From a virus: DNA of 42,735 nt. The first letter of the stretch is position 1. Each line of letters begins with the position of its first letter. The position numbers were made by a program, and so were the translations under genes. The stretch covers positions 1 through 42,735 of IMG/VR virus record IMGVR_UViG_3300045988_164138; one strand, 5' to 3'. The notes beneath the pieces were generated by a model. It was given only the letters and a program-made list of their open reading frames with translations, had not been told where the DNA came from and searched no databases. Positions 30,237-42,735 of this stretch are shown here, one piece after another.

Positions 30237-31169
30237 TCAGGCGCCGGCCTTGGTCTTAATCGTCGCGAACTTGTCCGGGAAAACGTACCAAGCGTACAGA
30301 ATCTCAAGGCGGAGAGCGATCTGGTTCCGGCGCTTCAGGTCACCCTGACCGTCCGGGTCGCCGAAACGGATAATCTCGAGCGGCAGAGACCGCTGAATCC
30401 CCCACCGAATACCGTCCACAAAATCACCGACGATACCCTCGACATTGGTAGCGGCGGTAGCCTCAGGCTTGCCAGCAACAGTGTTTCCAGCGGCGACCGG
30501 AAGCCCCATGAAATTATCAATGTCGACGCCGAGGCCGATCTGCGGGTAACGCGGCGTACCCGAAGGAGAACCGTCAGCATTCTTGGTCTGGAGGCTGCCG
30601 AGCGCCCAAACGGCGGACGGGGCCAAAGCGAGGCCGGTGGGAGTAATCGGCGCAGCGTTGTCGTTAATGAGCAGACCAGCGGCCTGGCGGATCGCCTGGT
30701 CCATCTCCGTAGTGCCGATCTCGACATTCTTGGTGGTGGAGGTCAGGTAGTTGTTCCACGCGTCGATAACGGCGCCCGTCAGCGGGTTAACACGGTGGTA
30801 AAGGCCGAGGTCGAGGGCACGGGAAAGCGCCTCACCGCCCTTCTGTGCGAGCTGGTTGAGGACGTCCAACTGATAGTCCTCGTCGGCCCACTGGACCTCC
30901 TCGTTGAATCGCATAGTGACCTGAGCCTTGTGCGGCTTAGCGGTCACGTAACCGAATTCACCGGAGGTGGGTGCCTTCTCGGCGCCCTCGTCGACGAACT
31001 CGGCGCACGGGAAATTATCGAAAGTGATAATGTCCACGTCGCCGAAGGTCATGGGGATTCCGCCGTTGAGCTTGGCGACGGTGGAGAGGGTCTGGGTGCG
31101 AGCAATGATCCCGTCGGCGATCTGCCGAGGCATGAGGACCTTTGCCTTGCCTGAATCAAACACGGCCAT
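30237..31169 (-). CDS. major capsid protein
   Basis: 310 aa, directly after the scaffold gene. Strongly C/G-ending codons suggest high expression. Confidence 0.8.
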   Translation of the reverse strand: MAVFDSGKAKVLMPRQIADGIIARTQTLSTVAKLNGGIPMTFGDVDIITFDNFPCAEFVDEGAEKAPTSGEFGYVTAKPHKAQVTMRFNEEVQWADEDYQLDVLNQLAQKGGEALSRALDLGLYHRVNPLTGAVIDAWNNYLTSTTKNVEIGTTEMDQAIRQAAGLLINDNAAPITPTGLALAPSAVWALGSLQTKNADGSPSGTPRYPQIGLGVDIDNFMGLPVAAGNTVAGKPEATAATNVEGIVGDFVDGIRWGIQRSLPLEIIRFGDPDGQGDLKRRNQIALRLEILYAWYVFPDKFATIKTKAGA

Positions 31170-31228
31170 TTTTGTTGGTTTCCGTTTCTTTCTAGTGTTT
31201 ACTTTTTTAGAATGGCGGCTAGTGTGTT

Positions 31229-31714
31229 TTAGTCGCCGGCGAAAACGTTCCGAGCGAATTCTGCAAGATTGCCGCCGTGATTGTCGGGCGTGGCTCCGGC
31301 TTGTGGTACCACGGGGGCAACAGACGGTTTAGCGTCGTGCAGTGCCTTGGCGATTGCGGCGGCATGAGCGTTGATTTCGTCCTCGGTTGTTCCTCGGATA
31401 AGATCGGCGCTGATGCCGTGTTCTGCGGCTGCGTTGGCGGACCATTCGCGGACTTTGGCGTCGGTTTCGAAGTCGGCCACCTTTGCTTTTAGGGCTTCGA
31501 TTGTGGCGTCTTTGTCGCCGATTGCCTTGGCGAGCTCGTCTCGTTCGTTGGCGGCGCGCCCGTTCTCTTTGGCGCGGTTCTTCCACTTCCGGGACTCGCT
31601 CTTCCAGTCGATTTCAGGCTTACTAGCGGCAGCATTGTCCTCATTCTTGGGGGCATTGTCGTCGTTAGTGGCACTGTTGTCTGCTTGCGTGTCGCTTGCG
31701 GCATTGTCGCGCAT
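31229..31714 (-). CDS. scaffolding protein
   Basis: 161 aa, acidic and helical (ERDELAKAIGDKDATIEALKAKVADFETDAKVREW). Assigned by position. Confidence 0.7.
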   Translation of the reverse strand: MRDNAASDTQADNSATNDDNAPKNEDNAAASKPEIDWKSESRKWKNRAKENGRAANERDELAKAIGDKDATIEALKAKVADFETDAKVREWSANAAAEHGISADLIRGTTEDEINAHAAAIAKALHDAKPSVAPVVPQAGATPDNHGGNLAEFARNVFAGD

Positions 31715-31823
31715 TGGGCGTTTCCTATATTTTGACCGTGCGGTTATTGTGATGTTTTCAGGCAGCTATTTTCGGGCTTTGCAGCCGTCCTTCACTGGCC
31801 TTTGTTTATGCATTGTAGCACAA

Positions 31824-32549
31824 TCATTCAATTGGCTTTGTGCGCCATTCTGCGAGTTCCTCTTGGTGTGTGTCTATCCACGATGAGACGAGTTCGCGGT
31901 GGCGTTCGCGGCCTTTTTCAGTTTTGTGTCTGGCTGCGAGCGTGTATGCTTTTGCGGGGACTTCACGTGCAGTCGGGTCCCATGCGGGGACGGCGACACA
32001 TTTGCAATTATCGTGCGCCCCGAATGACGCGGTCCCCTGGCTGCGGTAGTAGCATTCGTTCATTGTGAGCATGACGCAGAAATTGCATGCTTGAGGGTTA
32101 CGTGTTCGTCTTTCCCATCCCATTGCTTCTGGGTCGGCCCATGTCATGTCTGCGATTTGCGAGCGGGCGCCGTCGCTGACGTATCGGATGAGTGCCCCGG
32201 TCAAATAGGATAGGGCGATGTCGGGGGTTCCGGCGTATAGTGCTCCTGCGCTGAATCTGACGCTGTCGTCGATTTCGCCTTGCGGTGTGAGTGATGTTTG
32301 TACTGTGGGGGCGTCGCCGGGAATGTCCTGGTCTAGGCGCATGTCGCGGTACCATTCGTCGGCGATTGCGGCGGCCGCCCCACCGTATTGGTCTACGAGG
32401 GCGGGCATGATTTCGAGTAGAAGATCGCGGGCTTGTTCGGGGCGTTGTCTAGCGGCGTGGGACCATAGTGTGTGTAAATCGTTTTGGGCGAGTGTGGTGA
32501 GCGAGTCTATTGCTCGACCGTACGCCCCGATTTCTGCGGTTGATAGCAT
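31824..32549 (-). CDS. MuF/SPP1 gp7-like minor head protein
   Basis: 241 aa directly after the portal gene. CNFCVML...CKCVAVP Cys cluster. Confidence 0.55.
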   Translation of the reverse strand: MLSTAEIGAYGRAIDSLTTLAQNDLHTLWSHAARQRPEQARDLLLEIMPALVDQYGGAAAAIADEWYRDMRLDQDIPGDAPTVQTSLTPQGEIDDSVRFSAGALYAGTPDIALSYLTGALIRYVSDGARSQIADMTWADPEAMGWERRTRNPQACNFCVMLTMNECYYRSQGTASFGAHDNCKCVAVPAWDPTAREVPAKAYTLAARHKTEKGRERHRELVSSWIDTHQEELAEWRTKPIE

Positions 32550-32556
32550 AATGGTG

Positions 32557-34164
32557 TTAGTTTATTGGTGTTTTGGTGCCGCCGGGCAGTTTAATGTTGC
32601 GCCTAACCCGGTTCTTTGTATTGGGTGCGTTATTAAGGCCCAGGTTGCTGCCATTGCCGTTATTGCCAGCATTGTTATTGGCGATGTTATAGGCGTTGTC
32701 ACCATCGGCGTCATTGTCCGTGTCACCGTTCTCGCCGTTCTCGTCCACATTCTCGTTATTCGTGGCGGCGAGAGCGCGATCAAGCAACGAAACTGCATTC
32801 TTTTTGCGATTCTCGGCGTTAATGTCTGCGAGATCATCCTCGGTGAGCCCAGCACGCCGCATAAGAGTCTGCGACTCCTGCAACGACGGGAACGCAGACA
32901 CCATTTTGACCGCGAAATCGGCTGCAGACGACGGCGAGGAATAGCGGGCGGGGGTCCACTTCACAGAAGTCTTCCACGACTCCTGCGGCGGCTCGTCAAG
33001 CTTGTCCCTGACCATAATAATGTTCTGCAGCGTGCGCCGCAACGGTGCAGTAAAAATACGCCACTGATACTCGGCTTCGTCCGCGAGCGCCGCCTCAGCA
33101 GCCTGCATCGCCTCAGCCGAGGCAGGGTTCTCCGCGAATACTCCGATCGCGGACTGAGGAAGATTTGTGGCCGCGCACAAATTCTGCGCCAGCTGCCGGT
33201 ACATTTCCAAGTGCGGGCTCATGGTCATTTGTGAGAATTGCCCAACCGACGGGATATCCCCGTTTTCATTCGGCTCCAAAACTTGGACGCGTGCCATGAT
33301 TGCGGACCACCTGTCTTGGCCGGCAAAATCTGCTCTTTCCGCACCGAGCACGTACCGCTGTGGTGAGGAGAAGAATTCTGCGGACGTTTCTGCGCGGACC
33401 ATTGTCCTCACCGCCGCGTCCGTGAGGTACCTTACTTCACGGGTGATTCGTGAATGCCCCAACGGCCTGTTCAATTGTGGGTCGTAGCAGAGTGCTTCGA
33501 CGAAAATGCGGTTGGGCGTGTCTCCTAGTTTTTCAGCTTTCCATCCGCCGCCGTTCTCTTTGGCGTCGATTCGCCAAATGGCGGTGGGGGTGTGCATGAT
33601 GGCGCCGGCCGGCTGCCCGTATTTGTCGGTCTGATCGATCGTGAGGGCGGCCTCGATTATGCGACGCCTAGTGTCCCAAAGAGCGGCAGACCATTCCGCG
33701 TCACGGGCCTGCACCACAACAGGAGGCTCACCGATGGTCTCATCCCCCCGCGTCACTGTGAGCAATGAGAAAGAATGCTTGTAGGCAGACGTGATCGCCT
33801 GGGCGAGATCAAGATCATAATTGTTTGCAGATAGTATTTCGTTTGCTTCGAAAGCGTCCGGGGCACCGTTCAGGGAATAGCCTTCGAACACATGCCTCCT
33901 GGAGAGCATGGTGACGACTTTCTGAGGCCACCCCAACGCGGCCTTGGTGCGCGTCATTTGTGGCGGAATACTGATCCCCAAATCCTGGAAAGCGCGGTGA
34001 CCGTCATAGTAGACGGAGAGCAGTTTGTTTTTGTTTGAGTGCTGCTGCCATTTCTGCCACAGTTGCAGAAATGTTGCATGGTCTTCACCGGGGAGTCCGG
34101 AAATGCGGGTCGGGGCCGGCGTAGCATTAACGAGTCGTCCATCGTCAGGATAAATTTCAGTCAT
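32557..34164 (-). CDS. portal protein
   Basis: 535 aa. ATGA overlap with the TerL stop. SPP1-type order: portal, MuF, scaffold, capsid. Confidence 0.85.
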   Translation of the reverse strand: MTEIYPDDGRLVNATPAPTRISGLPGEDHATFLQLWQKWQQHSNKNKLLSVYYDGHRAFQDLGISIPPQMTRTKAALGWPQKVVTMLSRRHVFEGYSLNGAPDAFEANEILSANNYDLDLAQAITSAYKHSFSLLTVTRGDETIGEPPVVVQARDAEWSAALWDTRRRIIEAALTIDQTDKYGQPAGAIMHTPTAIWRIDAKENGGGWKAEKLGDTPNRIFVEALCYDPQLNRPLGHSRITREVRYLTDAAVRTMVRAETSAEFFSSPQRYVLGAERADFAGQDRWSAIMARVQVLEPNENGDIPSVGQFSQMTMSPHLEMYRQLAQNLCAATNLPQSAIGVFAENPASAEAMQAAEAALADEAEYQWRIFTAPLRRTLQNIIMVRDKLDEPPQESWKTSVKWTPARYSSPSSAADFAVKMVSAFPSLQESQTLMRRAGLTEDDLADINAENRKKNAVSLLDRALAATNNENVDENGENGDTDNDADGDNAYNIANNNAGNNGNGSNLGLNNAPNTKNRVRRNIKLPGGTKTPIN

Positions 34165-35654
34165 AGGAACAATACTCCGCCGCCACGATCATTTCTACTA
34201 TTGGCGTTTTCGATTTTATCATAAGGCTTGTAACGGGGTCGTCTTTTTGTTGTGCGTGCCGCCCACATTGCGAGCGTGCATGCTTCCAGGCCGGCTACCG
34301 TGGCTCCGGGCGGGGCTTGTAGCGCCCATCCTCCTGATGTTCCGATTGGGCGCGGCGTCGCAGACGCGGCCTCGGTCCTCAATTGCATGTCGTCTAGGTG
34401 GGTGATTGTGTTTTCGCGTAGTGAGGCGTCTAACATGCTGTAGGCGTCTATGATTTGCGTGATTGTGGGGGTGATGATGACTTGGGGGCGTACTCCGATG
34501 GCGCGTAGTCTTTCGATTGTGTCGCCGGCACCGTATTTTCCGTCTACGATGATTTGCGCCCATCTGTCTTTGGTGTCCGCAATGTAGTCGATTATCCATT
34601 GTGTACCTTCGTTCATGCGGCGGACGCCCTGGTGGGTGCATAGTTCGACGTGCGTGGGCGTGTTTGCCTTGTGTCCCGCTCGGGCTAGGGCGCATGTTGA
34701 TCCGTCGGGTGCGAATCTGATTGCGGCACACCATCGCATGCCGGTCGGCGTGTTTTCTGGCCGTATTGTGGCGGTGTTCCAGGCGGCGGGGTCGATTGCG
34801 AGCCTGTCGTTGGCTCGGTCCCATATTCCGAGGCCTTCACGGCGGAATGATTCTTCTCCGAGTTGTCTGCGCATTCTTAGAATGGCGGATTCGGGTGTGC
34901 GGCGCGGGTATGATGGGTTTGCTTTTTCCCATTGTTTCCGGTCGTCGCTGTTAGCGTCGTAGTCGGCGGCTAGTTCGAGGTAGAGGCCGTCTTTTATTTC
35001 GCCTTGTAGGGCGAGGTTGCGGAATTCGCTGAATGCTTCTGATGGGTCTTTTGGTTTTGGTGGTGTTCCTATTTTGATGATGAGCGGATCCGGGGCGGTG
35101 TTTGTGGCGGGGATCATGTCGTCTAGTGCGGCTGCGCCCAGGATCTGGGCTTCGTCGAAGAGGATCATGTCTACGCCGTGGAATCCTCGTCCGAATCCGC
35201 CTTCGCGGGCGCCGAAGAGGATTCGTGATCCGTTGTTGAAGAGGATGGCTTGTTGCCCGTTCGCTTGCCGTATTTTATTCACGTACGGTGCGATGTTGGG
35301 GATTTGTGCCATTCCTTTCATGTCGTTGAATGTTTCGTCTGCTGTGCGTGTGCGGTGTGCGGTCCAGAGTACGAAGTAGTTTGGGTGGATGGTGGCGAGT
35401 GCGAATGTGAGGCCGCCGATTGTGTATGTTTTGCCGACCTGTCGTGGGATGCTGGCTTGGATTCCGTCGATGCTGGCGGCGTAGTGGCCGTCGTTTCGTT
35501 TTGCGAGGATTGCTTTGAGCCAGTCTTGTTGCCATGTGTCGAGGGGGTATTGCATTTCTTGGAGGCGGTGTTTGACTGGCGGCCAGGCGGTGTGTGTGAT
35601 GTTTTCTGGGAGGGTGAGGTGGGCGGCGATTTCGCTGAGGTGTTTTTCGCTCAT
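34161..35654 (-). CDS. terL: terminase large subunit
   Basis: Walker A PRQVGKTY, Walker B MILFDEAQ, and a C-terminal nuclease region. Confidence 0.9.
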   Translation of the reverse strand: MSEKHLSEIAAHLTLPENITHTAWPPVKHRLQEMQYPLDTWQQDWLKAILAKRNDGHYAASIDGIQASIPRQVGKTYTIGGLTFALATIHPNYFVLWTAHRTRTADETFNDMKGMAQIPNIAPYVNKIRQANGQQAILFNNGSRILFGAREGGFGRGFHGVDMILFDEAQILGAAALDDMIPATNTAPDPLIIKIGTPPKPKDPSEAFSEFRNLALQGEIKDGLYLELAADYDANSDDRKQWEKANPSYPRRTPESAILRMRRQLGEESFRREGLGIWDRANDRLAIDPAAWNTATIRPENTPTGMRWCAAIRFAPDGSTCALARAGHKANTPTHVELCTHQGVRRMNEGTQWIIDYIADTKDRWAQIIVDGKYGAGDTIERLRAIGVRPQVIITPTITQIIDAYSMLDASLRENTITHLDDMQLRTEAASATPRPIGTSGGWALQAPPGATVAGLEACTLAMWAARTTKRRPRYKPYDKIENANSRNDRGGGVLFL

Positions 35655-35655
35655 T

Positions 35656-35937
35656 TTAGATGCCGTCCCAGGTTTGTGTTTCGTTTGAAATGTCGGTGGG
35701 GTGTGTGGTGGTGTTTTCGTTTTGTGTGGTGGCGAGTTGGTCTGTGATTTGTATGAGTTGTGCGGTGAGTTTTGTGAGTGCTGTGTCGCCTGTTCTGGGG
35801 TCGTCTATGACGGTGGCGATTTTGTGTGCGAGTGCTTGGCGGATGAGTGTTGGGTTGTTTGTGTTTGTGGCGTCTGTGATGGGTGTGGGGCTGTTGGGTT
35901 CGTATATGGTGATTGTGGTATTTGTGTGGGTTGTCAT
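35656..35937 (-). CDS. hypothetical protein (possible small terminase subunit, by position only)
   Basis: 93 aa. T/N-rich ends and a helical core. RBS agaggg. It stops 1 nt before the terL start. Confidence 0.35.
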   Translation of the reverse strand: MTTHTNTTITIYEPNSPTPITDATNTNNPTLIRQALAHKIATVIDDPRTGDTALTKLTAQLIQITDQLATTQNENTTTHPTDISNETQTWDGI

Positions 35938-35979
35938 ACCCTCTATTATATGCTGTGATACTCCTTACGTCTGTCAGAG

Positions 35980-36075
35980 TTTTCCACAGGGTTTTCCACA
36001 GGGTGGGGAGTTTTCCACATGATGGCGGTCACATTGTGATCTGGGTTACTGGAGTTATCCACAAGGTTTTCCACA
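35980..36075 (+). promoter_or_regulatory. cluster of five same-orientation DnaA-box-like 9-mers, TT(T/A)TCCACA
   Basis: ttttccaca at 35980-35988, 35992-36000, 36011-36019 and 36067-36075. The exact consensus ttatccaca is at 36055-36063. Confidence 0.6.
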
Positions 36076-36259
36076 AGCAGGGAGGGATGGGCAGACCTTC
36101 GGGGTGTTCGCGGCCGGATGGGGGAGGGGGGGGTGGCCCCCATCACACAATTTGTGTGGTGTGCGTCTCGTTTCGCTCCGTTCCCTGCCTTGTTTTGTGG
36201 TGTGAGTCCCACTTTAAGGAATCCCTTACTGTTGTGGGGCCCCCCTTCGTTCGTCTCGT

Positions 36260-36590
36260 TTTGTTGCCATGGTTTTTTTGAACACCATTGTTTGGTTTGT
36301 GCCTTTGAATTTTTTTGCATGTTTTTGTAACATTTCTTTTGTTTTTATGCGTTTTTGCGTGTTTGTGCGTTTGTGCGTTGTGTTGCCTTTGTGGCATGCG
36401 TTGGCACCATGCATGGTGCATGGTATTGGTATGCATGTCATGCATCATGTCATCATCACATGTTCATCATCATGTTGATCATGTTCATTGTCGATCATGA
36501 TTGATCATCATCATGTTCGTTGTTCATTGTTATTGATTGTTGATTGAACGTTGATCATGTTGATCATGATCGTTCGTTGGTTGTGTGATC
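36260..36590. repeat. T-rich/AT-rich tract with GCGTTT iterons, a 14-bp palindrome and a GATC/TGATCA cluster
   Basis: gcgtttttgcgtgtttgtgcgtttgtgcgttgtg. caccatgcatggtg at 36405-36418. Seven GATC between 36477 and 36590, including gttgatcatg at 36474, 36550 and 36559. Confidence 0.7.
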
Positions 36591-36948
36591 GTGAACGAGT
36601 GAGAGTAGATGAGTGGATGGTGTCCGTCTCTCGTCTGTGTGGTGTGTGGAATGGCGGTTGGTGTGTGTTGCTGCTGGCCTGCGCTGTCCGGTGTGTGCGG
36701 CCCGGCCCGCACTCCACCTCCTCGGTGCGCGGTGAGTACTGCGTCATGTCGTGTACTGTTCCTTGCCGGGTGTGTGGTGCAGTGCGGGTGAGTGTCTGTC
36801 TGTGCTGTTCGTGTGATGGGGTATCCTTCGTCTGCTCTCCCCTGGTCGTGGTGGTGGGTGGGGCTATCGTGGATGGGTGGGCGGCATTGTGGTGGTGGGT
36901 GGCATAGCATTGAAGGGCGGGTGCTGTGATGCTGTCCCTCCCGTCTGC

Positions 36949-36987
36949 GTGTTGGCGTCCCCCTTGTTCGGTGTTGGCGTCCCCCTT
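36949..36987 (+). repeat. 17-bp direct repeat gtgttggcgtccccctt x2 (22-bp period)
   Basis: Copies at 36949-36965 and 36971-36987. Confidence 0.85.
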
Positions 36988-37358
36988 CCGTTTGCGTGGT
37001 GGTCCTGTTGAATGGCGGGGGTGGCGTGTGTTGTGGTGTTCCGTGTTCGGATTGGGTCTTTCCCTTCATGTTGTCCCTGGTCCTCTCGTATTGTCCTCGC
37101 TCCTCTTCCTCTTGTGTTGCTGCGTCTGTTGTGGGTGTGGGGGGGGTGCGGGCGGGGGTTTACCTCGTTGTGAAACTGTGGCTTGCTTCTCCTCTCTCTT
37201 TGTGTTCACTGTCACAGTATTGTTGGTTAGGGTGGTGTGTTTGTGGCAGGGTTGTGTTATTGTGGAATGGCGGTGGTGTGGTGAGGGTGTGTGGTCTCGT
37301 TATCTGTTTTCCTGTTTCTTTTCTTCTTCTTTCTTTTCTTCTTCTTCCTTTTCTTGTT

Positions 37359-37415
37359 GGTGTTCGGGGTAGTGCGCGCGCAGCCATGCGAGCACGCACG
37401 TTATCCCCGAACACC
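37359..37415. ncRNA. structured hairpin element, copy 1 (11-bp outer stem plus conserved 32-nt core)
   Basis: ggtgttcgggg [tagtgcgcgcgcagccatgcgagcacgcacgt tat] ccccgaacacc. On the plus strand it is preceded by a roughly 45-nt polypyrimidine tract. Confidence 0.5.
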
Positions 37416-37508
37416 ATGTGTTCCCTTGTTGTTTTGTCTTCTCTTCTTCCTGTTCCTTGATCTTCTTCCTCGTCCGCTTTTCCTTTTGTTGGAATGGCGG
37501 TGGGTGTT

Positions 37509-37853
37509 TCACCATGTGTCAGAGTGTTCGGTGGGCATGACGGCGACGGGTAGTCTGTCTCGCTCGTCCTCGTTTTTCTGGTAGTGGCGTGCTCTTCCTT
37601 TGCCTCCTCGTCCGTTGCCTCGTCTGCTGTTGCATTTGGCGCAGAGGACTCGTCCGTTGTCCGGGTGATTGGTTCCGCCTAACGAGGCTGGGATTATGTG
37701 GTCCGCTTCGGCGCTGTTTGGTTTGCGTTCCCCGTTATTGTTGTATTGGAGTTTTACTCCGCATGCTGGGCAGTGTGTGATGCCTATTTGTTGTGCTCTG
37801 GCGAGTACTTGTTTTCTGAATTGTTTGTGTTCGCGTGTGCTTGTTCTGCTCAT
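37509..37853 (-). CDS. HNH endonuclease
   Basis: CPACG...ADHIIPASLGGTNHPDNGRVLCAKCN (HNH with two CxxC pairs). RBS agagagaagagaac. Confidence 0.85.
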   Translation of the reverse strand: MSRTSTREHKQFRKQVLARAQQIGITHCPACGVKLQYNNNGERKPNSAEADHIIPASLGGTNHPDNGRVLCAKCNSRRGNGRGGKGRARHYQKNEDERDRLPVAVMPTEHSDTW

Positions 37854-38016
37854 CGTGTGTTCTCTTCTCTCTTTGCTTTTCTCTCTCGTGTTTGTGTTAG
37901 GTGGTGGCGCGTCGCAGCGTCAGCGAGACGAGCGCCTCCACCGTCTAACACTACCCTCCCTGTTCTCTTCTCGTCTTTCTTCTCGTCGCCTTTCTTCTCT
38001 TCTCGTCTTGTGGGTT

Positions 38017-38076
38017 GGCGTGCGTTGTGTAGTGCGCGCGCAGCCATGCGAGCACGCACGTAACACAGCGCACGCC
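38017..38076. ncRNA. structured hairpin element, copy 2 (14-bp outer stem, same 32-nt core)
   Basis: ggcgtgcgttgtgt [agtgcgcgcgcagccatgcgagcacgcacgt a] acacagcgcacgcc. The outer stem sequence differs from copy 1 but remains complementary (one G-T pair). Confidence 0.5.
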
Positions 38077-38230
38077 CCCCTTGTGTTCTGGCTTGTCTTA
38101 TTGGTCGCATGTTGTGTGCCTACCATCACACGTAATGCTTGTTGCATCCATCGCAACACGGCATCTATTGCTTACACCACACACTGTTCGTTGTTAACGA
38201 TCACCACGCTCACCATTGAACACTAATTAC

Positions 38231-38239
38231 GTTATAACA
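38231..38239 (-). promoter_or_regulatory. putative extended -10 (TGtTATAAC) of the late operon
   Basis: The minus strand reads tgttataac. The nearest palindromic operator is centred about 25 bp upstream. Nothing but HNH and the late genes lies downstream. Confidence 0.3.
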
Positions 38240-38252
38240 CACGTTCCCTAAA

Positions 38253-38305
38253 TAGACACTGTCTAACAAAAATAGACACTGTCTAACACGACTAGACAGT
38301 GTCTA
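38253..38305. promoter_or_regulatory. three 13-bp palindromic operator-like sites, TAGACAnTGTCTA, spaced exactly 20 bp apart
   Basis: Sites at 38253-38265 and 38273-38285 (tagacactgtcta) and 38293-38305 (tagacagtgtcta). The first two lie inside an identical 19-mer, aaatagacactgtctaaca. Confidence 0.65.
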
Positions 38306-38312
38306 ATTCTAG

Positions 38313-38328
38313 TACTCTTTTAAGAGTA
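38313..38328. promoter_or_regulatory. 16-bp palindrome tactctt-tt-aagagta next to the operator array
   Basis: 7-bp arms separated by a 2-nt centre. Confidence 0.4.
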
Positions 38329-38759
38329 TAGGTTGAGCCCAACACAGTGGCGAGCTCTTCGAAAACACCCTGCGGCGCCGACGCTCGCTTGCGTCGCTAG
38401 GGCTCCTCAGCGGCTGCGCCGCAGATCGTCTTCGACGATTCGTCTACTCGAGTGTAGCATACGGGACCAAAGTCACCGCAACAAACACTGCCAACAAAGC
38501 AACTGCAACAGAGACTATTCGTTGCAATCACAAGGAACACACTGACACAAACCCTTGCTACAAGGGCAGAAAGTGTGACGACACGCACCAACATTGTACT
38601 AACACAAACGGGTATTTTCGCCCTAGAACCCCGGTTGCTAGCAAACAACCCACATGCATGGAAAGTTAATGGAAGGTTAACGGAAACTGTGAAAGATCGG
38701 CGTGTTGGCGACACCGCACACCACCATCACACACCGCCCTTCTACAGCAGGCGCACCAC

Positions 38760-38806
38760 GACGACAAAAGCCCCACCTCCTCGTCGAAGATGGGGCCTTT
38801 GTCGTC
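38760..38806. terminator. 16-bp hairpin downstream of the minus-strand cassette
   Basis: gacgacaaaagcccca (15-nt loop) tggggcctttgtcgtc, with one mismatch. Confidence 0.55.
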
Positions 38807-38821
38807 CTCAGGGTAGTCAAG

Positions 38822-39163
38822 TCAGTAAGGCCACGCGAAGCGATACAGCAGAGCGCGCGAATCGGCGACCATCTCCCCGTCGTCGACAGGGACGAGGGCG
38901 ACCTCGAGGATGGCGTGGGCGAGATAGGCGTCCATGGCGAGACGAGCGAGGCGAGGCCAAATGTTCTCGTCGGCCATCGCGTACTCGTAGGCGTCGTCCC
39001 ATCCGTCGGGCGTCTCCAGCGGCTCCACCGAGCTGACGCCGCAATCGTCACCCGTCGTGTAGAGGGTCCAGGGGGTGCCGGTGCGGGGAGCGTGGACCCG
39101 GTAGATGGCGCCGAACTCGATGGTCTTGAGTGCGGGGTCGTCAGTACGGTGGATGGTGCCCAT
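38822..39163 (-). CDS. hypothetical protein (113 aa), GC3-rich
   Basis: ATG 39163 follows caggaaggaaagagaaa. Codons are almost all C/G-ending, unlike most of the genome. Confidence 0.6.
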   Translation of the reverse strand: MGTIHRTDDPALKTIEFGAIYRVHAPRTGTPWTLYTTGDDCGVSSVEPLETPDGWDDAYEYAMADENIWPRLARLAMDAYLAHAILEVALVPVDDGEMVADSRALLYRFAWPY

Positions 39164-39288
39164 TTTCTCTTTCCTTCCTGGCTGGTTGGTCTGTTCTGTT
39201 GGTATAAGAATGCCCCTTGGGCCTTGGCTAACACAAGACCCAAGGGGGGGGGTGTCCTCTGTCACATCGTGAGGGTGGGGTGGGCGGC

Positions 39289-39582
39289 TCAGTCGGCTAG
39301 ATCGGCTTCGACGCGGTCGATCAGCCGCCGCAGCGCGGCGTCGATCCGGGTCGCCGCCTCCTCACCCTCGAAGCCCCTGACGTCATTCGTGGTATCAGTG
39401 ATGATGATGCGAGCCAGCCGGATGGCATCGTGGACGGGGAGGTCGGCGGTGAAGCGGCGCACCAGCGCACGCGCGTATTGGTAGGCGGCCTCCTCGTGGC
39501 TCAGGGCGTAGCGGAGCATGAGGGCCATCGTGGTCTCGGGTTCGAGGGCGGGTGAGATGCACGGAGTAGTTGAGGTATCCAT
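39289..39582 (-). CDS. hypothetical protein, GC3-rich; start uncertain (the ORF is open to 39657)
   Basis: MDTSTT start chosen. Alternative starts are GTG 39657 and ATG 39528. None has a good SD, so a leaderless mRNA is possible. Confidence 0.45.
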   Translation of the reverse strand: MDTSTTPCISPALEPETTMALMLRYALSHEEAAYQYARALVRRFTADLPVHDAIRLARIIITDTTNDVRGFEGEEAATRIDAALRRLIDRVEADLAD

Positions 39583-39673
39583 GCCCGTATGGTGACATGG
39601 ATGCGGGTAGCGGCGCAAGCCCACGGGCGCAGAAGCTCCCATAACCCATTGAGACACATGTCACATGCGTTGA

Positions 39674-39682
39674 GGGTTGACA
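39674..39682 (+). promoter_or_regulatory. putative early promoter -35 element (GGGTTGACA)
   Basis: Third copy of GGGTTGAC, about 85 nt upstream of the first early gene. It is followed by the perfect hairpin gccgacgc aa gcgtcggc (39721-39738). Confidence 0.3.
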
Positions 39683-39761
39683 GCACCACCCCCGCCGCCA
39701 TTTCATAGTAGACGCACACACGCCGACGCAAGCGTCGGCACACAGAGAGAGGACACACACA

Positions 39762-40199
39762 GTGGGCAACACACTAGACGAGGGTGTGCTCATTCGACAC
39801 ATAGACCTGCGCCGGGCCACAAGGTCGTCGGACGACTCCCCGGCCCGGCTCGCAATTATGGTCGAGCACATGGATGGCACGAACTACATGATGAGCGTCG
39901 CCGACAAAAAAGAGACACCCGAACATATGACGACACTCCTCGCCGTCGTCAGCCGCGGCGCTGACATGATGTTCCGTGCCCTCGACATTCTCCGCGCTAT
40001 CGGATACGTGGACACGCTCCCCGTCGCACTATTGGGCAGGCAAATCGTTTTCGGATTGGACCGTGTCACGCTTGAGGTTGAAATTATTGAGCACAGTGAC
40101 GGCGAGATTGAGTGCGGCATTAGCGTTGCCGGTGTGAATGTGGAGAATGTTGAGGAGATTGGGGGTGTGCTGGAGGAGAACAACATTAACGTCATCTAA
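39762..40199 (+). CDS. hypothetical protein (145 aa), first gene of the early operon
   Basis: GTG start after agagagaggacacacaca. Confidence 0.6.
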   Translation: MGNTLDEGVLIRHIDLRRATRSSDDSPARLAIMVEHMDGTNYMMSVADKKETPEHMTTLLAVVSRGADMMFRALDILRAIGYVDTLPVALLGRQIVFGLDRVTLEVEIIEHSDGEIECGISVAGVNVENVEEIGGVLEENNINVI

Positions 40200-40459
40200 G
40201 GCGGTATGACAGAGGGCGTCGGGCTGGCATTGTGTCCTCCGTCTCGTGATTGCACGGGCGAGGATGTAACCATGTGTAGTCCACCGCCATCCGCCTTTCA
40301 TGGTGTTCTGGGGGTGATGGGCTGACGTGTCGTGGACCAACACCCTGGAGTGTGGCGGACGTCTCACCCTCGGGGGGTGGGCAGGCAGGCATCGGCGTCC
40401 TAGAGTTAAGGCATCGGGAGCAAGACAACCCAAACCATCACGTAGAAAGAGGAAACATC

Positions 40460-40642
40460 ATGACCATGAGGCATGCGGCACCGAGGCGCGCCAACGTTGC
40501 GTCCCGCCGCCCTTTGAAGCGCGGCAACGAAATCATCCTCGCCGCCGTCATCTACCTGACGGCGGCGTGTCTCGCTGTGATCGGGACGCTCGGTGTCGTG
40601 GCAGTCGTCTGGACCTTGTGGGGTGCGCTGGGGGTACGGTAA
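40460..40642 (+). CDS. small membrane protein (60 aa)
   Basis: ATG follows agaaagaggaaacatc. Basic N-terminus, then a long hydrophobic stretch IILAAVIYLTAACLAVIGTLGVVAVVWTLWGAL. Confidence 0.5.
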   Translation: MTMRHAAPRRANVASRRPLKRGNEIILAAVIYLTAACLAVIGTLGVVAVVWTLWGALGVR

Positions 40643-40694
40643 CCCCCCCCGCAATTCTGGCAACACAAACACAGAGGAAGAGAAGAGACACGCC

Positions 40695-41609
40695 ATGTTT
40701 TACGACGCGCATTTCATTGTCGACGTCACGAATTGGTCGCGGGGCATTTGGTTGGACGGCACAATGCAGATAATGGACGGTGAGGACATTCTTCTGTCCG
40801 ACCGCCTCGTACCAGCCTACCTCTCCGAGTTTCCGGATGATCGTCGTTCCGCCAATGAGGGGCTGGCTTCCATGCTGGGTATGGCTAAGGTTTACGATCG
40901 CATTCTTACCCTGGCCGACGAGCACGGTTTGCATGTTGACGAGGATGAGTTTTCGGCTTTGACAGTGTCGTCTGGCGGGGTGACGATTGGCACCATGATG
41001 GTTGCTATGAGGCGAAGTGGCGTCGAGCTGGACGTTGACCCGTTCATTGGGGAGGGCGCGTCGAAGCGCCCCATTTGGGACCACTTTGTGGATGGCATCA
41101 CTCACGACCCTGTCGTTGAGCATTCCCGCACTCCCGTTGGTGGCACTATTGGGGTAAGGCCAGAGAGGCCGCTCACACATTCAATGCGATTCCACGTTTA
41201 CATGAATCCGATAGGTGAGATGGCGTTCGTTTCCGGCGAGATCGCGTTGACCGAGGATAATATTGAGACTCTCCACTGGGGGGCCAATGTTGGTGTAGTC
41301 CGTGCCGAGGGCGTTGCGGGTAGGGTTCAGGAAATGTTCGACCGTCTTGTTGTGGGCGCTTCGGTCATGGATAGTCTCACTTCAGTGGCGGGCGCTTGTG
41401 GTATCACTCTCGCGATGGCGGGGGACTCTTTGATTGTCGCCTATTTCGCTGGTGAGATTATTGGGCAGATTGCTGTGGGCGCGGATGAGAGTGGTGTCGA
41501 GTTTATCCCCGGCGTGTTGGATTCCCATGACCGGTCGGACGCCACGAAGAAGGCGTGGGGTTGGTTCTGTGCTCGAATCCGGGAGATTCCTGACAGTGTG
41601 ATCGTTTGA
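40695..41609 (+). CDS. hypothetical protein (304 aa)
   Basis: ATG follows gaggaagagaagagaca. No motif recognised. Confidence 0.65.
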   Translation: MFYDAHFIVDVTNWSRGIWLDGTMQIMDGEDILLSDRLVPAYLSEFPDDRRSANEGLASMLGMAKVYDRILTLADEHGLHVDEDEFSALTVSSGGVTIGTMMVAMRRSGVELDVDPFIGEGASKRPIWDHFVDGITHDPVVEHSRTPVGGTIGVRPERPLTHSMRFHVYMNPIGEMAFVSGEIALTEDNIETLHWGANVGVVRAEGVAGRVQEMFDRLVVGASVMDSLTSVAGACGITLAMAGDSLIVAYFAGEIIGQIAVGADESGVEFIPGVLDSHDRSDATKKAWGWFCARIREIPDSVIV

Positions 41610-41769
41610 CCCCACCGAAATTCTAACTGACGCGCAGGACAAGTTGAGTGATCTGTGTGATTTGGGGGGGGGTGTGGGGCGGGTAATGGGCTCCGACATT
41701 TAACCTTTCGTCTTTCGACGGCAAATAGTAGTATCCATCACAATATTTTGGGAAGAGAGAAGCATTACT

Positions 41770-42051
41770 ATGGCTACAGTTTTCGAAACGGTTATCGCTC
41801 AGGCGGTCTGTGAATGGAATAATGATGGGCGCCGCCATGAGTTCAACGTGCATGCGCCTGCACGTAAGATTTACGACGGTGGAATCATCACTATCGGCAG
41901 CACTTGCCGTATTGTGGTCGCCGGCGACACTGTGAGGGCGAGGTCCATTAAGAGGAAGAGCGCCGCGATTACTCCGGAGAGTGTTGGTGAGTTTGTTCGT
42001 CGTGCTTTGACCGTGGCGGCGGCCCGCGGGAGGGCGGCCGGCAATGAGTGA
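41770..42051 (+). CDS. hypothetical protein (93 aa)
   Basis: ATG follows gggaagagagaagcattact. Confidence 0.6.
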   Translation: MATVFETVIAQAVCEWNNDGRRHEFNVHAPARKIYDGGIITIGSTCRIVVAGDTVRARSIKRKSAAITPESVGEFVRRALTVAAARGRAAGNE

Positions 42052-42379
42052 CGCTACTGTCGATAAGGCAGTGTTCGCCTTTCTTGCTAGTTGTGTTGGC
42101 GATTTTGCTCAGTGGCCCCAGTGTTCGATTGCCGCTTTGCATGGCAACAATGAAGGTGGCCGTCTTTTTGGGGTTCTGTTCAGGGCGACGGCCAGGAATC
42201 CTGACGATAGGACCGTCTTCAGGATTGTTGTCACGAAAGACGATGGGTGGCGGGTTCGTGTTGTTCAGCTGTCTAATCATGTCATTTTGGATGAGCGTGA
42301 CGCTGACCGTGGCACTATCGTCAGTGCTGTGAATCGCTTCATAGAGATGGCTGGCATGGTGGAAAGGCGGGAGTCATGA
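42044..42379 (+). CDS. hypothetical protein (111 aa)
   Basis: 8-nt overlap with the upstream gene. Confidence 0.6.
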   Translation: MSDATVDKAVFAFLASCVGDFAQWPQCSIAALHGNNEGGRLFGVLFRATARNPDDRTVFRIVVTKDDGWRVRVVQLSNHVILDERDADRGTIVSAVNRFIEMAGMVERRES

Positions 42380-42633
42380 TTGACGATGAGCTGCGCCCCA
42401 TTGTGACTGAGTTCATTGTGGAAATGTTCAATGATCCGCGCTGCGAATCCATTCTGTTAGACACGGGCGAGGATGCCATATTGGACAGTGACCTGCCCAT
42501 CCTTTATTCGGACGTCATCGGGAAACGATACGGGTACACTCTCAACATTGCGGGGGATGAGTATTCGGTGAGCATTCGAGATCGCAACACGAACAGCACA
42601 ATAACAACGGTAGAGAGAGGAAAAGGAGCATGA
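42376..42633 (+). CDS. hypothetical protein (85 aa)
   Basis: ATGA overlap with the upstream stop. Confidence 0.6.
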   Translation: MIDDELRPIVTEFIVEMFNDPRCESILLDTGEDAILDSDLPILYSDVIGKRYGYTLNIAGDEYSVSIRDRNTNSTITTVERGKGA

Positions 42634-42735
42634 GAGTTTCAGGAGTTGATCGCCGAAATCAAGACAAAACTGTGGGAGGACAAATGATCAAGCTATTCGA
42701 CTGGGAATTCCTGAAGCATGTCGTTGAGATGTGCA
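42630..42735 (+). CDS. 5' part of the junction-spanning gene that continues as 4..318
   Basis: ATG 42630 has an ATGA overlap with the upstream stop and RBS gagagaggaaaaggagc. It is in frame with ATG 42684, which equals position 4. Confidence 0.5.
   Translation, partial: MRVSGVDRRNQDKTVGGQMIKLFDWEFLKHVVEMC
42681..42735. repeat. 55-bp terminal direct repeat, copy 2
   Basis: Identical to 1-55. Confidence 0.95.

What the first reader, a model, noticed from the sequence alone, without database searches (positions are those of the whole stretch)
34161..38120. Patchwork of strand-coordinated C-to-T-like tracts at synonymous and non-coding sites
- In terL, the 93-aa gene, HNH and the MuF-like gene (all minus strand), codons end almost only in A or C (CAA, AAA, GAA, ACA, GCA, CGA, CTA). 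The plus strand is therefore G/T-rich and C-poor there.
- The intervening non-coding DNA is extremely G+T-rich.
- Plus-strand genes at 315-2778, 3490-4615, 13782-14813 and 40020-42400 end in G or T (TTG for Leu, GAT, GGT, CGT). This gives the same plus-strand bias despite the opposite coding orientation.
- Other stretches show the opposite polarity (plus strand A/C-rich): about 4.6-9.1 kb, 18.0-18.7 kb, 38.12-38.76 kb and 39.76-40.02 kb.
- The capsid gene and the 38.8-39.6 kb cassette keep plain C/G-ending codons.
- The simplest description is a GC3-rich ancestor overwritten by tracts of C->T changes confined to one strand per tract.
- Possible causes are ssDNA cytosine deamination (resection, rolling-circle or recombination intermediates, or a deaminase-type host attack) or mosaic exchange between differently decayed relatives.
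Basis: partly seen in the sequence, partly recalled or inferred. Interest (0 to 1): 0.7.

Follow-up and report, generated by a model that had tools for sequence, protein, structure and literature searches.

The report
Patchy one-strand G+T bias in phage
One DNA strand of this uncultured phage is strongly enriched in G and T in discrete tracts, whichever strand the genes are on; this resembles the replication-linked strand bias already described in acne-bacterium phages, but here it is patchy, and relatives show a new population signature hinting that mismatch handling during recombination shapes it.

Summary
In 34.2-38.1 kb the + strand is 11% A, 21% C, 33% G and 35% T. Codons of terL, the terS-like gene, HNH and MuF end in A or C in 79-96% of cases. 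Early + strand genes end in G or T. Segmentation gives eight statistically distinct tracts whose borders fall inside genes.

It is not a C-to-T overwrite. The A-to-G-like component is as strong or stronger, A is the most depleted base, and GC3 is unchanged. It is not a deaminase burst either:
- All 62 relatives (~90% identical) share the bias.
- Differences between relatives sit at synonymous sites.
- There is no dinucleotide context.

The closest known case is the transcription-independent G excess of C. acnes phages, attributed to replication. PA6 shows the same codon pattern genome-wide.

New here: among relatives, alleles at neighbouring transition polymorphisms are coordinated as G/T versus A/C on one strand (z about 20-27), out to roughly 800 bp, but not as GC versus AT. 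The signal recurs in C. acnes phages. It was not detected in Lactococcus, lambda-like (lower power) or L5-like phage populations.

Best reading: strand-asymmetric handling of G·T versus A·C mispairs during replication and recombination in an actinobacterial host, shuffled by recombination. The mechanism is inferred, not shown.

The parts
34388..37912 (+). Core G+T-rich, A-poor tract. It is the strongest segment of the patchwork.
   Evidence: Segmentation: G+T 0.69; A 11%, C 20%, G 33%, T 36%. The 300-nt windows reach G+T 0.77 and 5% A.
34161..35654 (-). Large terminase gene with 84% A/C-ending codons.
   Evidence: Pfam Terminase_6N. About 50% amino-acid identity to Arthrobacter and Rothia phage terminases. 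Third positions are A35 C49 G13 T4. The bias declines toward the 3' end: 0.90 falling to 0.62 in 60-codon windows.
35656..35937 (-). 93-aa terS-like gene with 96% A/C-ending codons and an amino-acid content also shifted to A/C-only codons.
   Evidence: PHROG phrog_1459, terminase small subunit, E = 9e-5. Third positions are A39 C56 G2 T2, first positions A51 T4. The translation is rich in Thr, Asn, Pro and Gln.
35938..37508 (.). 1.57-kb non-coding stretch between HNH and the terS-like gene, with the most extreme composition. Related phages have about 200 bp here.
   Evidence: A 10.4%, C 20.9%, G 31.2%, T 37.4%. No Rfam family or tRNA. Only low-complexity ORFs, made possible by the lack of stop codons on the T-poor strand. 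Repeat families are listed.
36085..36097 (.). Inferred physical genome end (cos). The skew does not change sign here.
   Evidence: At least 13 relatives' contigs end within window 36085-36097. Several, from different IMG/VR metagenome records, start at the identical base (TGCCCATCCC...). The gene order gene 1-terminase-portal-MuF-scaffold-capsid starts at the left end of Rothia phage Spartoi and Arthrobacter phage MrSmee.
35979..36075 (+). Five direct repeats GTT(T/A)TCCACA, which match the DnaA-box consensus, within about 115 nt of the genome end.
   Evidence: There are 5-9 copies in most relatives that cover the site. Their function (origin or terminase-binding site) was not tested.
37509..37853 (-). 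HNH endonuclease gene with 89% A/C-ending codons.
   Evidence: Pfam HNH and HNH_5. Third positions are A43 C46 G9 T3. The same A/C-ending HNH is seen in PA6 (A37 C51 G8 T4), MrSmee and L072 (A19 C71 G8 T2).
31047..32699 (+). Second G+T-rich tract. It covers the MuF-like gene, the scaffold gene, the 5' end of the capsid gene and the portal's low-complexity 3' tail.
   Evidence: Segmentation G+T 0.63. MuF/VG15 (31824-32549) has third positions A33 C45 G14 T7, and scaffold (31229-31714) has 21/49/16/14.
32700..34387 (.). Unbiased patch inside the biased region. It covers the portal body plus the last 226 nt of terL.
   Evidence: G+T 0.52. Portal third positions are 15/34/31/20. Here the window is shifted toward A/C on the + strand relative to most relatives (ratios 0.43-0.55; 46 versus 3 directional differences against L037). 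The portal is only 34% identical to the L072 portal, whereas that phage's terL (P0007) is 62% identical.
37913..38878 (+). Sharp switch to an A+C-rich + strand. Non-coding regulatory region with three palindromic operator-like sites.
   Evidence: G+T 0.44. TAGACA(C/G)TGTCTA at 38253, 38273 and 38293. Sequence shown.
1..4628 (+). Early-gene tract with the same + strand G+T bias, although these genes are on the + strand. It ends abruptly at a gene junction.
   Evidence: G+T 0.59. Genes are a DUF3987 protein, an unnamed ORF and an SNF2 helicase, with + strand G+T at third positions of 0.75, 0.73 and 0.66. The next gene (4612-4932) is 0.44.
38879..42735 (+). Moderately G+T-rich tract that continues into 1-4628 if the genome is circular.
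   Evidence: G+T 0.55. Genes 40593-42379 have third-position G+T of 0.63-0.70. Relatives' loci run continuously from window 42735 to window 1.

Best explanation
What it is. The flagged region is the strongest part of a strand compositional asymmetry: G+T ('keto') excess on the + strand. The genome is an uncultured, human-associated cos-type siphophage whose nearest terminase relatives are Actinomyces and Schaalia prophages. The asymmetry is of the same kind as the transcription-independent skew of C. acnes phages.

How it most likely works. At weakly constrained sites, changes that put G or T on the + strand (A-to-G-like and C-to-T-like) have been preferentially generated and/or fixed over a long time. 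The most likely cause is the asymmetric treatment of the two classes of transition mispair in an actinobacterial host. G·T mispairs are made more often on one nascent strand and are corrected by NucS/EndoMS. A·C mispairs are not corrected. This would act:
(a) during replication by the host replisome, as a mutational asymmetry; and
(b) in heteroduplex DNA when ~90%-identical relatives recombine. There, only the A·C-forming alleles of the incoming strand survive, which amounts to a strand-specific biased conversion.

Homologous recombination among relatives then cuts the signal into tracts whose borders ignore gene borders.

Shown:
- The composition and its independence of coding strand.
- That all relatives share it.
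- That alleles are coordinated along one strand in tracts.

Inferred:
- The host phylum.
- The role of NucS.
- The relative weight of (a) and (b).
- The direction of replication.
For: 1. The bias follows the absolute strand and both transition classes. Minus-strand late genes end in A/C and plus-strand early genes end in G/T. GC3 is unchanged.

2. The bias is old and filtered by selection.
- It is shared by 24-61 relatives per gene.
- Pairwise differences are spaced by multiples of three.

3. Tract borders fall inside genes.

4. Among 49-60 genomes, the variance of local G/T-allele counts exceeds random allele labelling by z = 19-27. GC labelling gives z = 0-2.6.

5. Signed linkage in G/T coding falls from r = 0.07 to 0 over roughly 800 bp.
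- It is equal for T/C-T/C, G/A-G/A and mixed pairs.
- It survives the control for minor-allele clustering.
- It is also seen in the early genes and the non-coding end.
- It is also seen among private variants: 199 concordant versus 114 discordant, p = 0.0012.

6. Test in other phage populations.
- C. acnes phages are positive, z = 5.9, 4.1 and 3.1.
- Lactococcus 936-type phages are null with good power.
- Lambda-like phages are null, with less power.

7. C. acnes phage PA6 shows the same codon pattern genome-wide, with a flip near its right-end non-coding region and an A/C-ending HNH. Marinelli et al. 2012 attributed that skew to replication rather than transcription (PMC3448167).

8. Published basis for the mismatch asymmetry.
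- EndoMS cuts G/T but not C/A. Wild-type C. glutamicum lines show A>G 48 versus T>C 13 on the leading strand (PMC6159521).
- In M. smegmatis, G-T and G-G mismatches brought in by an annealed strand are removed within a patch of about 5-6 bp, while A-C mismatches on the same strand persist (PMC11551744).
- NucS is present in 300 species of class Actinobacteria and lowers recombination 10-fold at 90% identity (PMC5290159).

9. Site-frequency fits. For sense A/G sites, a difference in fixation bias (B +1.8 versus -2.3) fits better than a difference in mutation input.
Against: - The host is not identified. No prophage copy was found in 185,579 species genomes, so the presence of NucS is assumed.
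- L5-like mycobacteriophages also infect a NucS host. They show neither the patchwork nor the coordinated linkage.
- No simple origin/terminus geometry fits.
  - The skew has the same sign on both sides of the inferred genome end and of the DnaA-box-like cluster.
  - In MrSmee the polarity differs between the two genome ends, and in PA6 between the right end and the rest of the genome.
- For sense C/T sites the frequency spectra are better fitted by a difference in mutation input than by a difference in fixation bias.
- G/C and A/T transversion sites should also be coordinated under the conversion model. There were too few of them (17 and 18) to tell.
- Most relatives are metagenome assemblies that may be chimeric between co-occurring strains. 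Generic linkage is lost beyond about 30-60 bp.
- Bias and module ancestry do not line up. MuF is biased and the portal is not, yet both are only about 30% identical to the nearest outside relatives.
Confidence: 0.5

Rival explanations
1. Spontaneous deamination of exposed single-stranded DNA, as on the mitochondrial heavy strand. The + strand would spend more time single-stranded in certain regions, through delayed lagging-strand synthesis, rolling-circle tails or resection. It would accumulate C-to-U and A-to-hypoxanthine changes. Exposure episodes would give clusters of same-strand changes.
For: - Both C-to-T-like and A-to-G-like excess lie on one strand, independent of transcription.
- Changes are coordinated along one strand over a few hundred bp, including private variants.
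- The bias is strongest around the genome end, where ends and resection occur.
Against: - + strand A, not C, is the most depleted base. Cytosine deaminates far faster than adenine (established chemistry).
- Resection from a cos end predicts opposite polarity on its two sides. Here the polarity is the same.
- The profile rises toward 38.1 kb and 4.6 kb and then drops sharply. This is the reverse of what simple strand-displacement geometry predicts (inference).
- The coordination is a small shift at nearly all site pairs rather than a few tightly linked clusters.
- Lactococcus phages, with similar diversity, show no such linkage, although deamination chemistry is universal.
Confidence: 0.17
2. 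Selection on strand composition itself. One possibility is that the minus strand, or its late transcript, must be poor in G and T/U. Reasons could include evading a defence that modifies G or T in single-stranded DNA (DarT-type ADP-ribosyltransferases), keeping a long leader RNA unstructured, or loading Rho.
For: - Frequency spectra suggest a fixation bias toward + strand T at sense A/G sites and a strong preference for sense C over T.
- The terS-like gene is unusually conserved at synonymous sites, with 95% median identity.
- The minus-strand RNA of 35.7-36.0 kb would have a C:G ratio of about 2.9.
- HNH is A/C-ending in five different phages of differing G+C content.
Against: - Early genes carry the opposite sense-strand composition, so no rule at the RNA level fits both gene sets.
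- Uniform directional selection on composition predicts no positive coupling between neighbouring alleles, and stabilising selection predicts negative coupling. Neither predicts the observed positive coupling (inference).
- No over-represented oriented motif was found beyond base composition.
- No defence or anti-defence gene was identified nearby.
Confidence: 0.12
3. Enzymatic hypermutation. Bursts of editing by a host or phage single-stranded-DNA deaminase (APOBEC-like or toxin-type) hit one strand per tract.
For: Tracts of 150-1000 bp exist in which nearly all differences between two genomes go one way. An example is 24 against 1 in 27385-27678 versus L012.
Against: - The differences lie almost only at third codon positions. 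A burst would hit all positions.
- Other genomes carry about half of each state rather than two allele classes.
- A-to-G-like changes are as common as C-to-T-like changes.
- There is no dinucleotide context: TC 1.04-1.06, CC 1.07-1.26.
- All relatives share the bias.
- Given the modest over-dispersion, such extreme pairs are expected from scanning about 60 genomes (inference).
Confidence: 0.03
4. Nothing special: ordinary gene-specific codon usage, chance, or an assembly artefact.
For: - Highly expressed capsid and portal genes look 'normal'. The capsid shows strong avoidance of A-ending codons.
- Relatives are mostly metagenome assemblies.
Against: - The bias has opposite sense-strand sign in early and late genes, and it is strongest in non-coding DNA.
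- Tape-measure and minor tail genes, needed in few copies, are unbiased.
- Tract borders lie inside genes.
- terL versus portal gives p = 2.5e-32.
- The bias is reproduced in contigs from many IMG/VR metagenome records and in the isolate-derived C. acnes phage genome PA6.
Confidence: 0.02

Closest known systems
Transcription-independent GC skew of C. acnes (Pahexavirus) phages (Marinelli et al. 2012, PMC3448167)
   Same: - One strand carries excess G (and, as computed here for PA6, T) across genes of both orientations. This gives G/T-ending codons on one arm and A/C-ending codons on the other.
- There is a sharp flip at a non-coding region near the right end, and the HNH gene is A/C-ending.
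- Genome architecture is similar, and neither phage has a polymerase gene identified (for the genes scanned here; for the PA6 annotation).
   Different: - In PA6 the skew covers about 27.5 of 29.7 kb, and the right-end 2.2 kb carries the opposite polarity to the rest.
- Here it is patchy: half of the genome is neutral and an unbiased block lies inside the biased region.
- Here the main-body polarity relative to the gene map is inverted.
- Here the sign does not change at the inferred genome end.
Strand-specific codon usage of Borrelia and Lawsonia chromosomes (for example PMC2671203)
   Same: Codon third positions, and some amino-acid content, are set by which replication strand a gene lies on. 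Genes on the leading strand are rich in G/T-ending codons.
   Different: - Those are chromosome-wide, two-replichore patterns with a known origin.
- Here the tracts are 1-5 kb long.
- The magnitude is larger: third-position AT skew is about 0.8 in terL.
Vertebrate mitochondrial heavy/light-strand asymmetry
   Same: Comparable magnitude. C-to-T-like and A-to-G-like pressure are coupled on one strand, and amino-acid content is affected.
   Different: - There, the base depleted most on the exposed strand is C, and the bias forms a gradient tied to mapped origins.
- Here A is depleted most and the profile is stepwise.
GC-biased gene conversion
   Same: Behaves like a fixation bias that acts in recombination tracts on synonymous and non-coding sites alike.
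   Different: - The alleles grouped here are G/T versus A/C on one strand, not GC versus AT. GC coding shows no coordination.
- A conversion bias of this strand-specific kind turned up in none of the four papers that mention both 'biased gene conversion' and NucS, judged from their titles and abstracts.
NucS/EndoMS non-canonical mismatch repair of Actinobacteria (PMC6159521, PMC11551744, PMC5290159)
   Same: Its specificity (G/T, G/G and T/T are cut; A/C is not) defines exactly the two allele classes that are coordinated here. It acts on annealed-strand heteroduplex with a short patch and suppresses recombination at 90% identity.
   Different: No link to phage base composition or to conversion bias turned up in the searches made. 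Here the involvement of NucS is an inference, and the host is unknown.
APOBEC-type hypermutation and kataegis
   Same: Strand-coordinated clusters of transitions.
   Different: No C-only signature, no sequence context, confined to synonymous sites, and shared by the whole clade.

Membership tests
Replication-linked strand skew as in C. acnes phages | Skew keeps its sign where the coding strand switches | tested here: met
   Late minus-strand genes are A/C-ending and early plus-strand genes are G/T-ending. Both give + strand G+T excess.
Replication-linked strand skew as in C. acnes phages | G over C and T over A on the same strand | tested here: met
   In the 500-nt windows spanning 34001-38000, GC skew is +0.04 to +0.46 and AT skew -0.27 to -0.72. 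Composition is given.
Replication-linked strand skew as in C. acnes phages | Sharp polarity flip at a non-coding region near the right end (proposed origin) | tested here: inconclusive
   There is a sharp flip at about 37.9 kb next to the 38.1-38.8 kb non-coding operator region. G+T excess resumes at 38.9 kb, and no origin has been mapped.
Replication-linked strand skew as in C. acnes phages | Genome-wide extent with two polarity domains | tested here: not met
   4629-26049 is neutral (0.49). There is an unbiased block at 32700-34387. The skew does not change sign at the inferred genome end.
Deaminase-type hypermutation | Only C-to-T (G-to-A) changes, with a preferred neighbouring base | tested here: not met
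   A/G differences are as frequent as C/T differences. Dinucleotide ratios are unremarkable for NC contexts.
Deaminase-type hypermutation | Hits all codon positions in individual genomes | tested here: not met
   Directional differences are spaced by threes. The bias is shared by all relatives.
Mitochondrial-type single-strand deamination gradient | C-to-T and A-to-G on the same strand | tested here: met
Mitochondrial-type single-strand deamination gradient | Monotonic gradient from an origin, with C most depleted | tested here: not met
   The profile is stepwise, with an unbiased block inside. A is the rarest base.
Translational codon bias | Preference follows the coding strand and expression level | tested here: not met
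   The sense-strand preference is opposite in early and late genes. Non-coding DNA is the most biased. Low-copy tail genes are unbiased.
NucS/EndoMS mismatch-class effect (working hypothesis) | Alleles group by G·T-forming versus A·C-forming class, not by GC content | tested here: met
   G/T coding gives z = 19-27 and GC coding z = 0-2.6. All three pair types behave alike. The result is robust to major/minor coding.
NucS/EndoMS mismatch-class effect (working hypothesis) | Host carries NucS and lacks MutS/MutL | tested here: inconclusive
   The host is unknown. The nearest named terminases (59-61% identity) are in Actinomyces and Schaalia genomes. No prophage was found in GTDB genomes. NucS is near-universal in class Actinobacteria (PMC5290159).
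NucS/EndoMS mismatch-class effect (working hypothesis) | Signal present in actinophage populations and absent in phages of MutS/MutL hosts | tested here: inconclusive
   Present in this phage and in C. acnes phages. Not detected in Lactococcus 936-type phages (good power) or lambda-like phages (less power). Also absent in L5-like mycobacteriophages. Only five populations were tested.
NucS/EndoMS mismatch-class effect (working hypothesis) | Dependence on nucS in crosses | not testable with these tools
   Needs wet-lab crosses in wild-type and nucS-deleted hosts.

The most novel reading that the evidence does not exclude
In phages of actinobacteria, recombination between diverged relatives may be filtered by the host's NucS/EndoMS repair. 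G·T, G·G and T·T mismatches in heteroduplex are removed in short patches, while A·C mismatches survive. Each exchange would then transfer only those donor alleles that put A or C on the incoming strand. This would be a strand-specific biased gene conversion. It would produce the coordinated G/T-versus-A/C linkage seen here. Where one strand is habitually the incoming one, it would drive the extreme strand skew. The patchwork would then be a map of which strand invades or anneals where.
Probability: 0.25. Interest if true: 0.85.

Novelty: new variant of a known kind. Interest (0 to 1): 0.6.

Why it matters
Strand skew is routinely read as a footprint of replication, and its cause is still debated. 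This phage gives three things.

1. An unusually strong skew that is also patchy, so it cannot be explained by a simple origin-terminus geometry.
2. A large natural population (62 relatives fetched here; the terminase protein cluster has 1,765 member sequences) in which the process can be watched at polymorphic sites.
3. A specific, testable link to the non-canonical mismatch repair of Actinobacteria.

If the link holds, it would add a new evolutionary force, analogous to GC-biased gene conversion, that shapes codon usage and even protein composition in actinophages. It would also caution against using skew flips to call phage replication origins.

If the link fails, the region is still a clear example of how far strand bias can push a coding sequence: 96% A/C-ending codons, and 5% of one base over 300 nt.

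Tried and rejected
Searches that found nothing:
- Nucleotide search of the phage collection found no close relative.
- Rfam and tRNA scans of the window found nothing, so the 1.57-kb non-coding stretch is not a known RNA.
- A prophage search in 185,579 species genomes gave only 41%-identity hits in Leucobacter, so the host stays unknown.
- The cluster look-up gave only 'Caudoviricetes sp.' names.

Ideas tested and dropped:
- A Chi-like or other oriented motif behind the G+T richness. k-mer enrichment showed only the local repeats (TTTTCCACA, GGAATGGCGG, GATCATG) and generic GT-rich words.
- Origin and terminus models were reasoned through. These were a bidirectional origin at the DnaA-box cluster, at 38-40 kb or at 26 kb; strand displacement; and symmetric end resection. 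None fits all tracts.

Analyses with limits:
- Polarising substitutions by major versus minor allele or by singletons. Synonymous sites are near saturation, and conditioning on the consensus base biases per-site rates. The apparent lack of C>T and A>G singletons is therefore not evidence against mutation bias.
- Beta-binomial site-frequency models (one search timed out). The two site classes give conflicting answers.
- Transversion-site linkage, meant to separate conversion from deamination, had too few sites.
- The only near-identical genome pair (L027 and L059) differs at 10 sites, nine of them in one 24-bp cluster. This is uninformative.
- The extreme directional tracts are not independent evidence. 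Other genomes are intermediate, and such extremes are expected from the modest over-dispersion.

Full report
**What the window is**

The window is a complete, circularly permuted genome of a siphophage.
- Late genes lie on the minus strand from about 38.1 kb down to 16.5 kb. They include HNH, a terS-like 93-aa gene, terL, an SPP1-type portal, a VG15/MuF-like gene, scaffold, capsid and the tape measure.
- Early genes lie on the plus strand from about 39.8 kb through the window junction to 9.7 kb. They include a DUF3987 protein, an SNF2 helicase, an AAA_24 protein and a DUF669 protein.
- The terminase is about 50% identical to those of Arthrobacter, Rothia and Propionibacterium phages, and 59-63% identical to proteins in Actinomyces and Schaalia genomes.
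- No cultured relative or prophage copy was found. The host is probably an actinobacterium but is not known.
- IMG/VR holds 62 relatives of 42-43 kb with about 90% nucleotide identity.
- At least 13 of their contigs end within window 36085-36097, several at the identical base. Together with synteny to phages whose genomes start with gene 1 and terminase, this places the physical end (cos) about 156 nt upstream of the terS-like gene.

- Between 34.2 and 38.1 kb the + strand is 10.9% A, 21.5% C, 32.5% G and 35.1% T. It falls to 5% A in 300 nt.
- Sense-strand third positions are 84% A/C in terL, 96% in the terS-like gene, 89% in HNH and 79% in MuF. They are 49% in the portal and 48% in the capsid. 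terL versus portal gives p = 2.5e-32.
- Plus-strand early genes show the mirror image in sense terms (A6 C19 G42 T32). In absolute terms this is the same + strand G+T excess.
- Likelihood segmentation gives eight tracts.
- Tract borders fall inside genes: 142 nt into the portal's 3' end, 226 nt into terL's 3' end and about 120 nt into the capsid's 5' end.
- First and second codon positions and protein composition are also shifted where constraint is weak. Examples are the terS-like protein and the portal's Asn-rich tail.

**The description 'C-to-T tracts' is too narrow**

- Relative to unbiased genes, the sense strand loses G3 to A3 and T3 to C3. On the + strand these are C-to-T-like and A-to-G-like changes together.
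- GC3 stays at about 62-65%.
- The AT skew (up to -0.72) exceeds the GC skew.
- The rarest + strand base is A, not C.
- The base ranking G > T > C > A is the same at third positions of the late genes (read as their complement) and of the early genes. In the non-coding DNA A is again by far the rarest base, with T slightly above G. This ranking fits a G/T-favouring pressure added to the general GC-favouring pressure seen in the unbiased genes (inference).

**It is not a burst of editing**

- All relatives carry the bias.
- Differences between relatives lie at every third base.
- There is no dinucleotide context.
- A single event that saturated synonymous sites would have destroyed the proteins (inference).

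**Population evidence**

- Compared with its relatives, the window is shifted toward G/T in some 500-bp bins (ratios up to 2.9) and toward A/C in the portal (0.43-0.55).
- Scans find 150-1000-bp stretches in which nearly all differences from one relative go one way. Other genomes are intermediate rather than falling into two allele classes. I therefore treat these stretches as the tails of a diffuse effect.
- The decisive test randomises allele labels.
  - The variance among 49-60 genomes of the local count of G/T alleles at transition polymorphisms exceeds random labelling by z = 19-27. It is significant in every sub-region.
  - GC labelling is indistinguishable from random.
- Signed correlation in G/T coding is 0.07 below 10 bp and decays to zero by roughly 800 bp. 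It is equal for T/C-T/C, G/A-G/A and mixed pairs.
- The correlation stays positive for pairs in which the G/T allele is the major allele at one site and the minor allele at the other (0.039, 0.033, 0.010). This excludes clustering of rare alleles as the cause.
- The signal is also present in the early genes (z = 5.6) and the non-coding end (z = 2.9). Neighbouring private transitions in one genome also agree in direction (199 versus 114, p = 0.0012).
- Generic linkage (r squared) is at baseline beyond 30-60 bp. Either recombination is extremely fine-grained or the assemblies are chimeric.

**Controls in other phage populations (same pipeline)**

- C. acnes phages, many of them under IMG isolate-genome identifiers, are positive (z = 5.9, 4.1, 3.1).
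- Lactococcus 936-type phages are null with tight errors (r = -0.006 +/- 0.008 and 0.000 +/- 0.004).
- Lambda-like phages are null with less power.
- L5-like mycobacteriophages are null.
- The statistic is therefore not a method artefact. It is also not universal among actinophages.

**Comparison with known cases**

- PA6, a C. acnes phage, shows the same phenomenon genome-wide.
  - Left-arm genes are A2 C8 G45 T45.
  - Right-arm genes on the other strand are about A28 C51 G15 T7.
  - There is a flip at about 27.5 kb, and the HNH gene is A37 C51 G8 T4.
- Marinelli et al. 2012 reported the G excess, its independence of transcription and the flip in the right-end non-coding region. They attributed it to replication (PMC3448167).
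- Arthrobacter phage MrSmee and an Actinomyces-type phage (L072) show partial versions, again with an A/C-ending HNH.
- Lambda, HK97 and L5 have half the between-gene spread.
- The kind of feature is therefore known. Three things are unusual here:
  - its patchiness;
  - its sign, which is inverted relative to PA6 on the main body and unchanged across the genome end;
  - a 1.57-kb non-coding insert with extreme composition.

**Mechanism**

The two allele classes that are coordinated are exactly the two transition mispair classes. An allele that puts G or T on a strand forms G·T in heteroduplex. An allele that puts A or C on it forms A·C.

Published work in actinobacteria shows the following.
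- EndoMS/NucS cuts G/T but not C/A.
- Wild-type C. glutamicum accumulates A>G over T>C (48 versus 13). The authors also describe a preference, of slightly different extent, for C>T over G>A on the leading strand (PMC6159521).
- In M. smegmatis, G-T and G-G mismatches brought in by an annealed strand are removed within about 5-6 bp, while A-C mismatches on the same strand persist (PMC11551744).
- NucS lowers recombination 10-fold at 90% identity and is present in 300 species of class Actinobacteria (PMC5290159).

From this I infer two routes that are not mutually exclusive.
- A replication-error asymmetry that enriches G/T on the leading strand.
- A strand-specific biased conversion, in which each exchange imports only one allele class.

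The second route would explain three observations.
- The positive coupling over tract-length distances.
- The very short generic linkage.
- The frequency spectra, which for sense A/G sites are better fitted by a change in fixation bias (B +1.8 versus -2.3) than by a change in mutation input.

The evidence is incomplete.
- The C/T site class points the other way.
- The transversion test was underpowered.
- L5-like phages lack the signal.
- The host is unknown.
- No replication geometry I tried fits all tracts.

**Verdict**

The feature is a new, patchy and extreme variant of a strand skew already described in actinophages. It comes with a previously unreported population signature that makes a repair-linked mechanism directly testable.

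Noticed in passing
window 35979-36075: Five direct repeats GTT(T/A)TCCACA match the DnaA-box consensus TTATCCACA and lie within about 115 nt of the inferred genome end. Most relatives that cover the site have 5-9 copies. They could be a host-DnaA-dependent origin or terminase (cosB-like) binding sites.
   Followed up: partly
window 36085-36097: At least 13 relatives' contigs end here, several at exactly the same base and from different IMG/VR metagenome records. This points to a defined physical terminus (cos). A smaller group of four contigs ends at about 38056-38206.
   Followed up: partly
window 37369-37401 and 38029-38061: A perfect 33-nt direct repeat (GTAGTGCGCGCGCAGCCATGCGAGCACGCACGT) with hairpin potential. 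Each copy is preceded by a C/T-rich run. Its core is absent from almost all relatives (61 of 62 have no copy), although only about 20-30 of them cover this region.
   Followed up: partly
window 36645, 37006, 37261, 37488: Four copies of a 24-nt repeat with the core GGAATGGCGG, spaced 361, 255 and 227 bp apart in the non-coding stretch. The last copy abuts the HNH stop codon. Relatives that cover the region have 1-4 copies.
   Followed up: partly
window 38253-38306: Three palindromic sites TAGACA(C/G)TGTCTA at exact 20-bp spacing between the divergent early and late gene sets. They look like repressor operators. Some relatives have 1-3 copies.
   Followed up: partly
window 36430-36580: A cluster of GATCATG / TGATCA motifs and CAT-rich short repeats interrupts the otherwise A-poor strand.
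   Followed up: no
window 32557-32760: The portal protein ends in a low-complexity Asn/Gly/Asp-rich tail encoded by A/C-rich codons. The portal alignment is 1668 columns long against a 1608-nt gene, so relatives differ by insertions or deletions, but their position was not checked.
   Followed up: partly
window 36530-37069 and neighbours, minus strand: Long ORFs (up to 179 aa) with low-complexity translations arise only because the T-poor strand lacks stop codons. They have no family match and should not be called genes.
   Followed up: partly
window 24300-36000 (population of relatives): Common transversion polymorphisms are strongly strand-asymmetric. There are 100 G/T sites against 18 A/C sites on the + strand, and only 17 G/C and 18 A/T sites.
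   Followed up: no
window 24300-36000 (population of relatives): Pairwise divergence is a uniform 6-10%, and ordinary linkage disequilibrium vanishes beyond about 30-60 bp. Either recombination is extraordinarily fine-grained or the metagenome assemblies are chimeric between co-occurring strains.
   Followed up: partly
L400 (C. acnes phage PA6) 1-29739: PA6 has 70-92% G/T at third positions on the top strand across about 27.5 kb, whatever the gene orientation. The polarity flips for the last 2.2 kb, including HNH. The published account found here mentions only GC skew.
   Followed up: yes
window 30237-34164 versus L072 and L073: Module ancestry is mosaic. terL is about 60% identical to Actinomyces-type phages, but portal is only 34% and MuF 29% identical to L072. 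The capsid is 62% identical to a Schaalia prophage capsid, whereas L070 and L072 use a different capsid family.
   Followed up: partly
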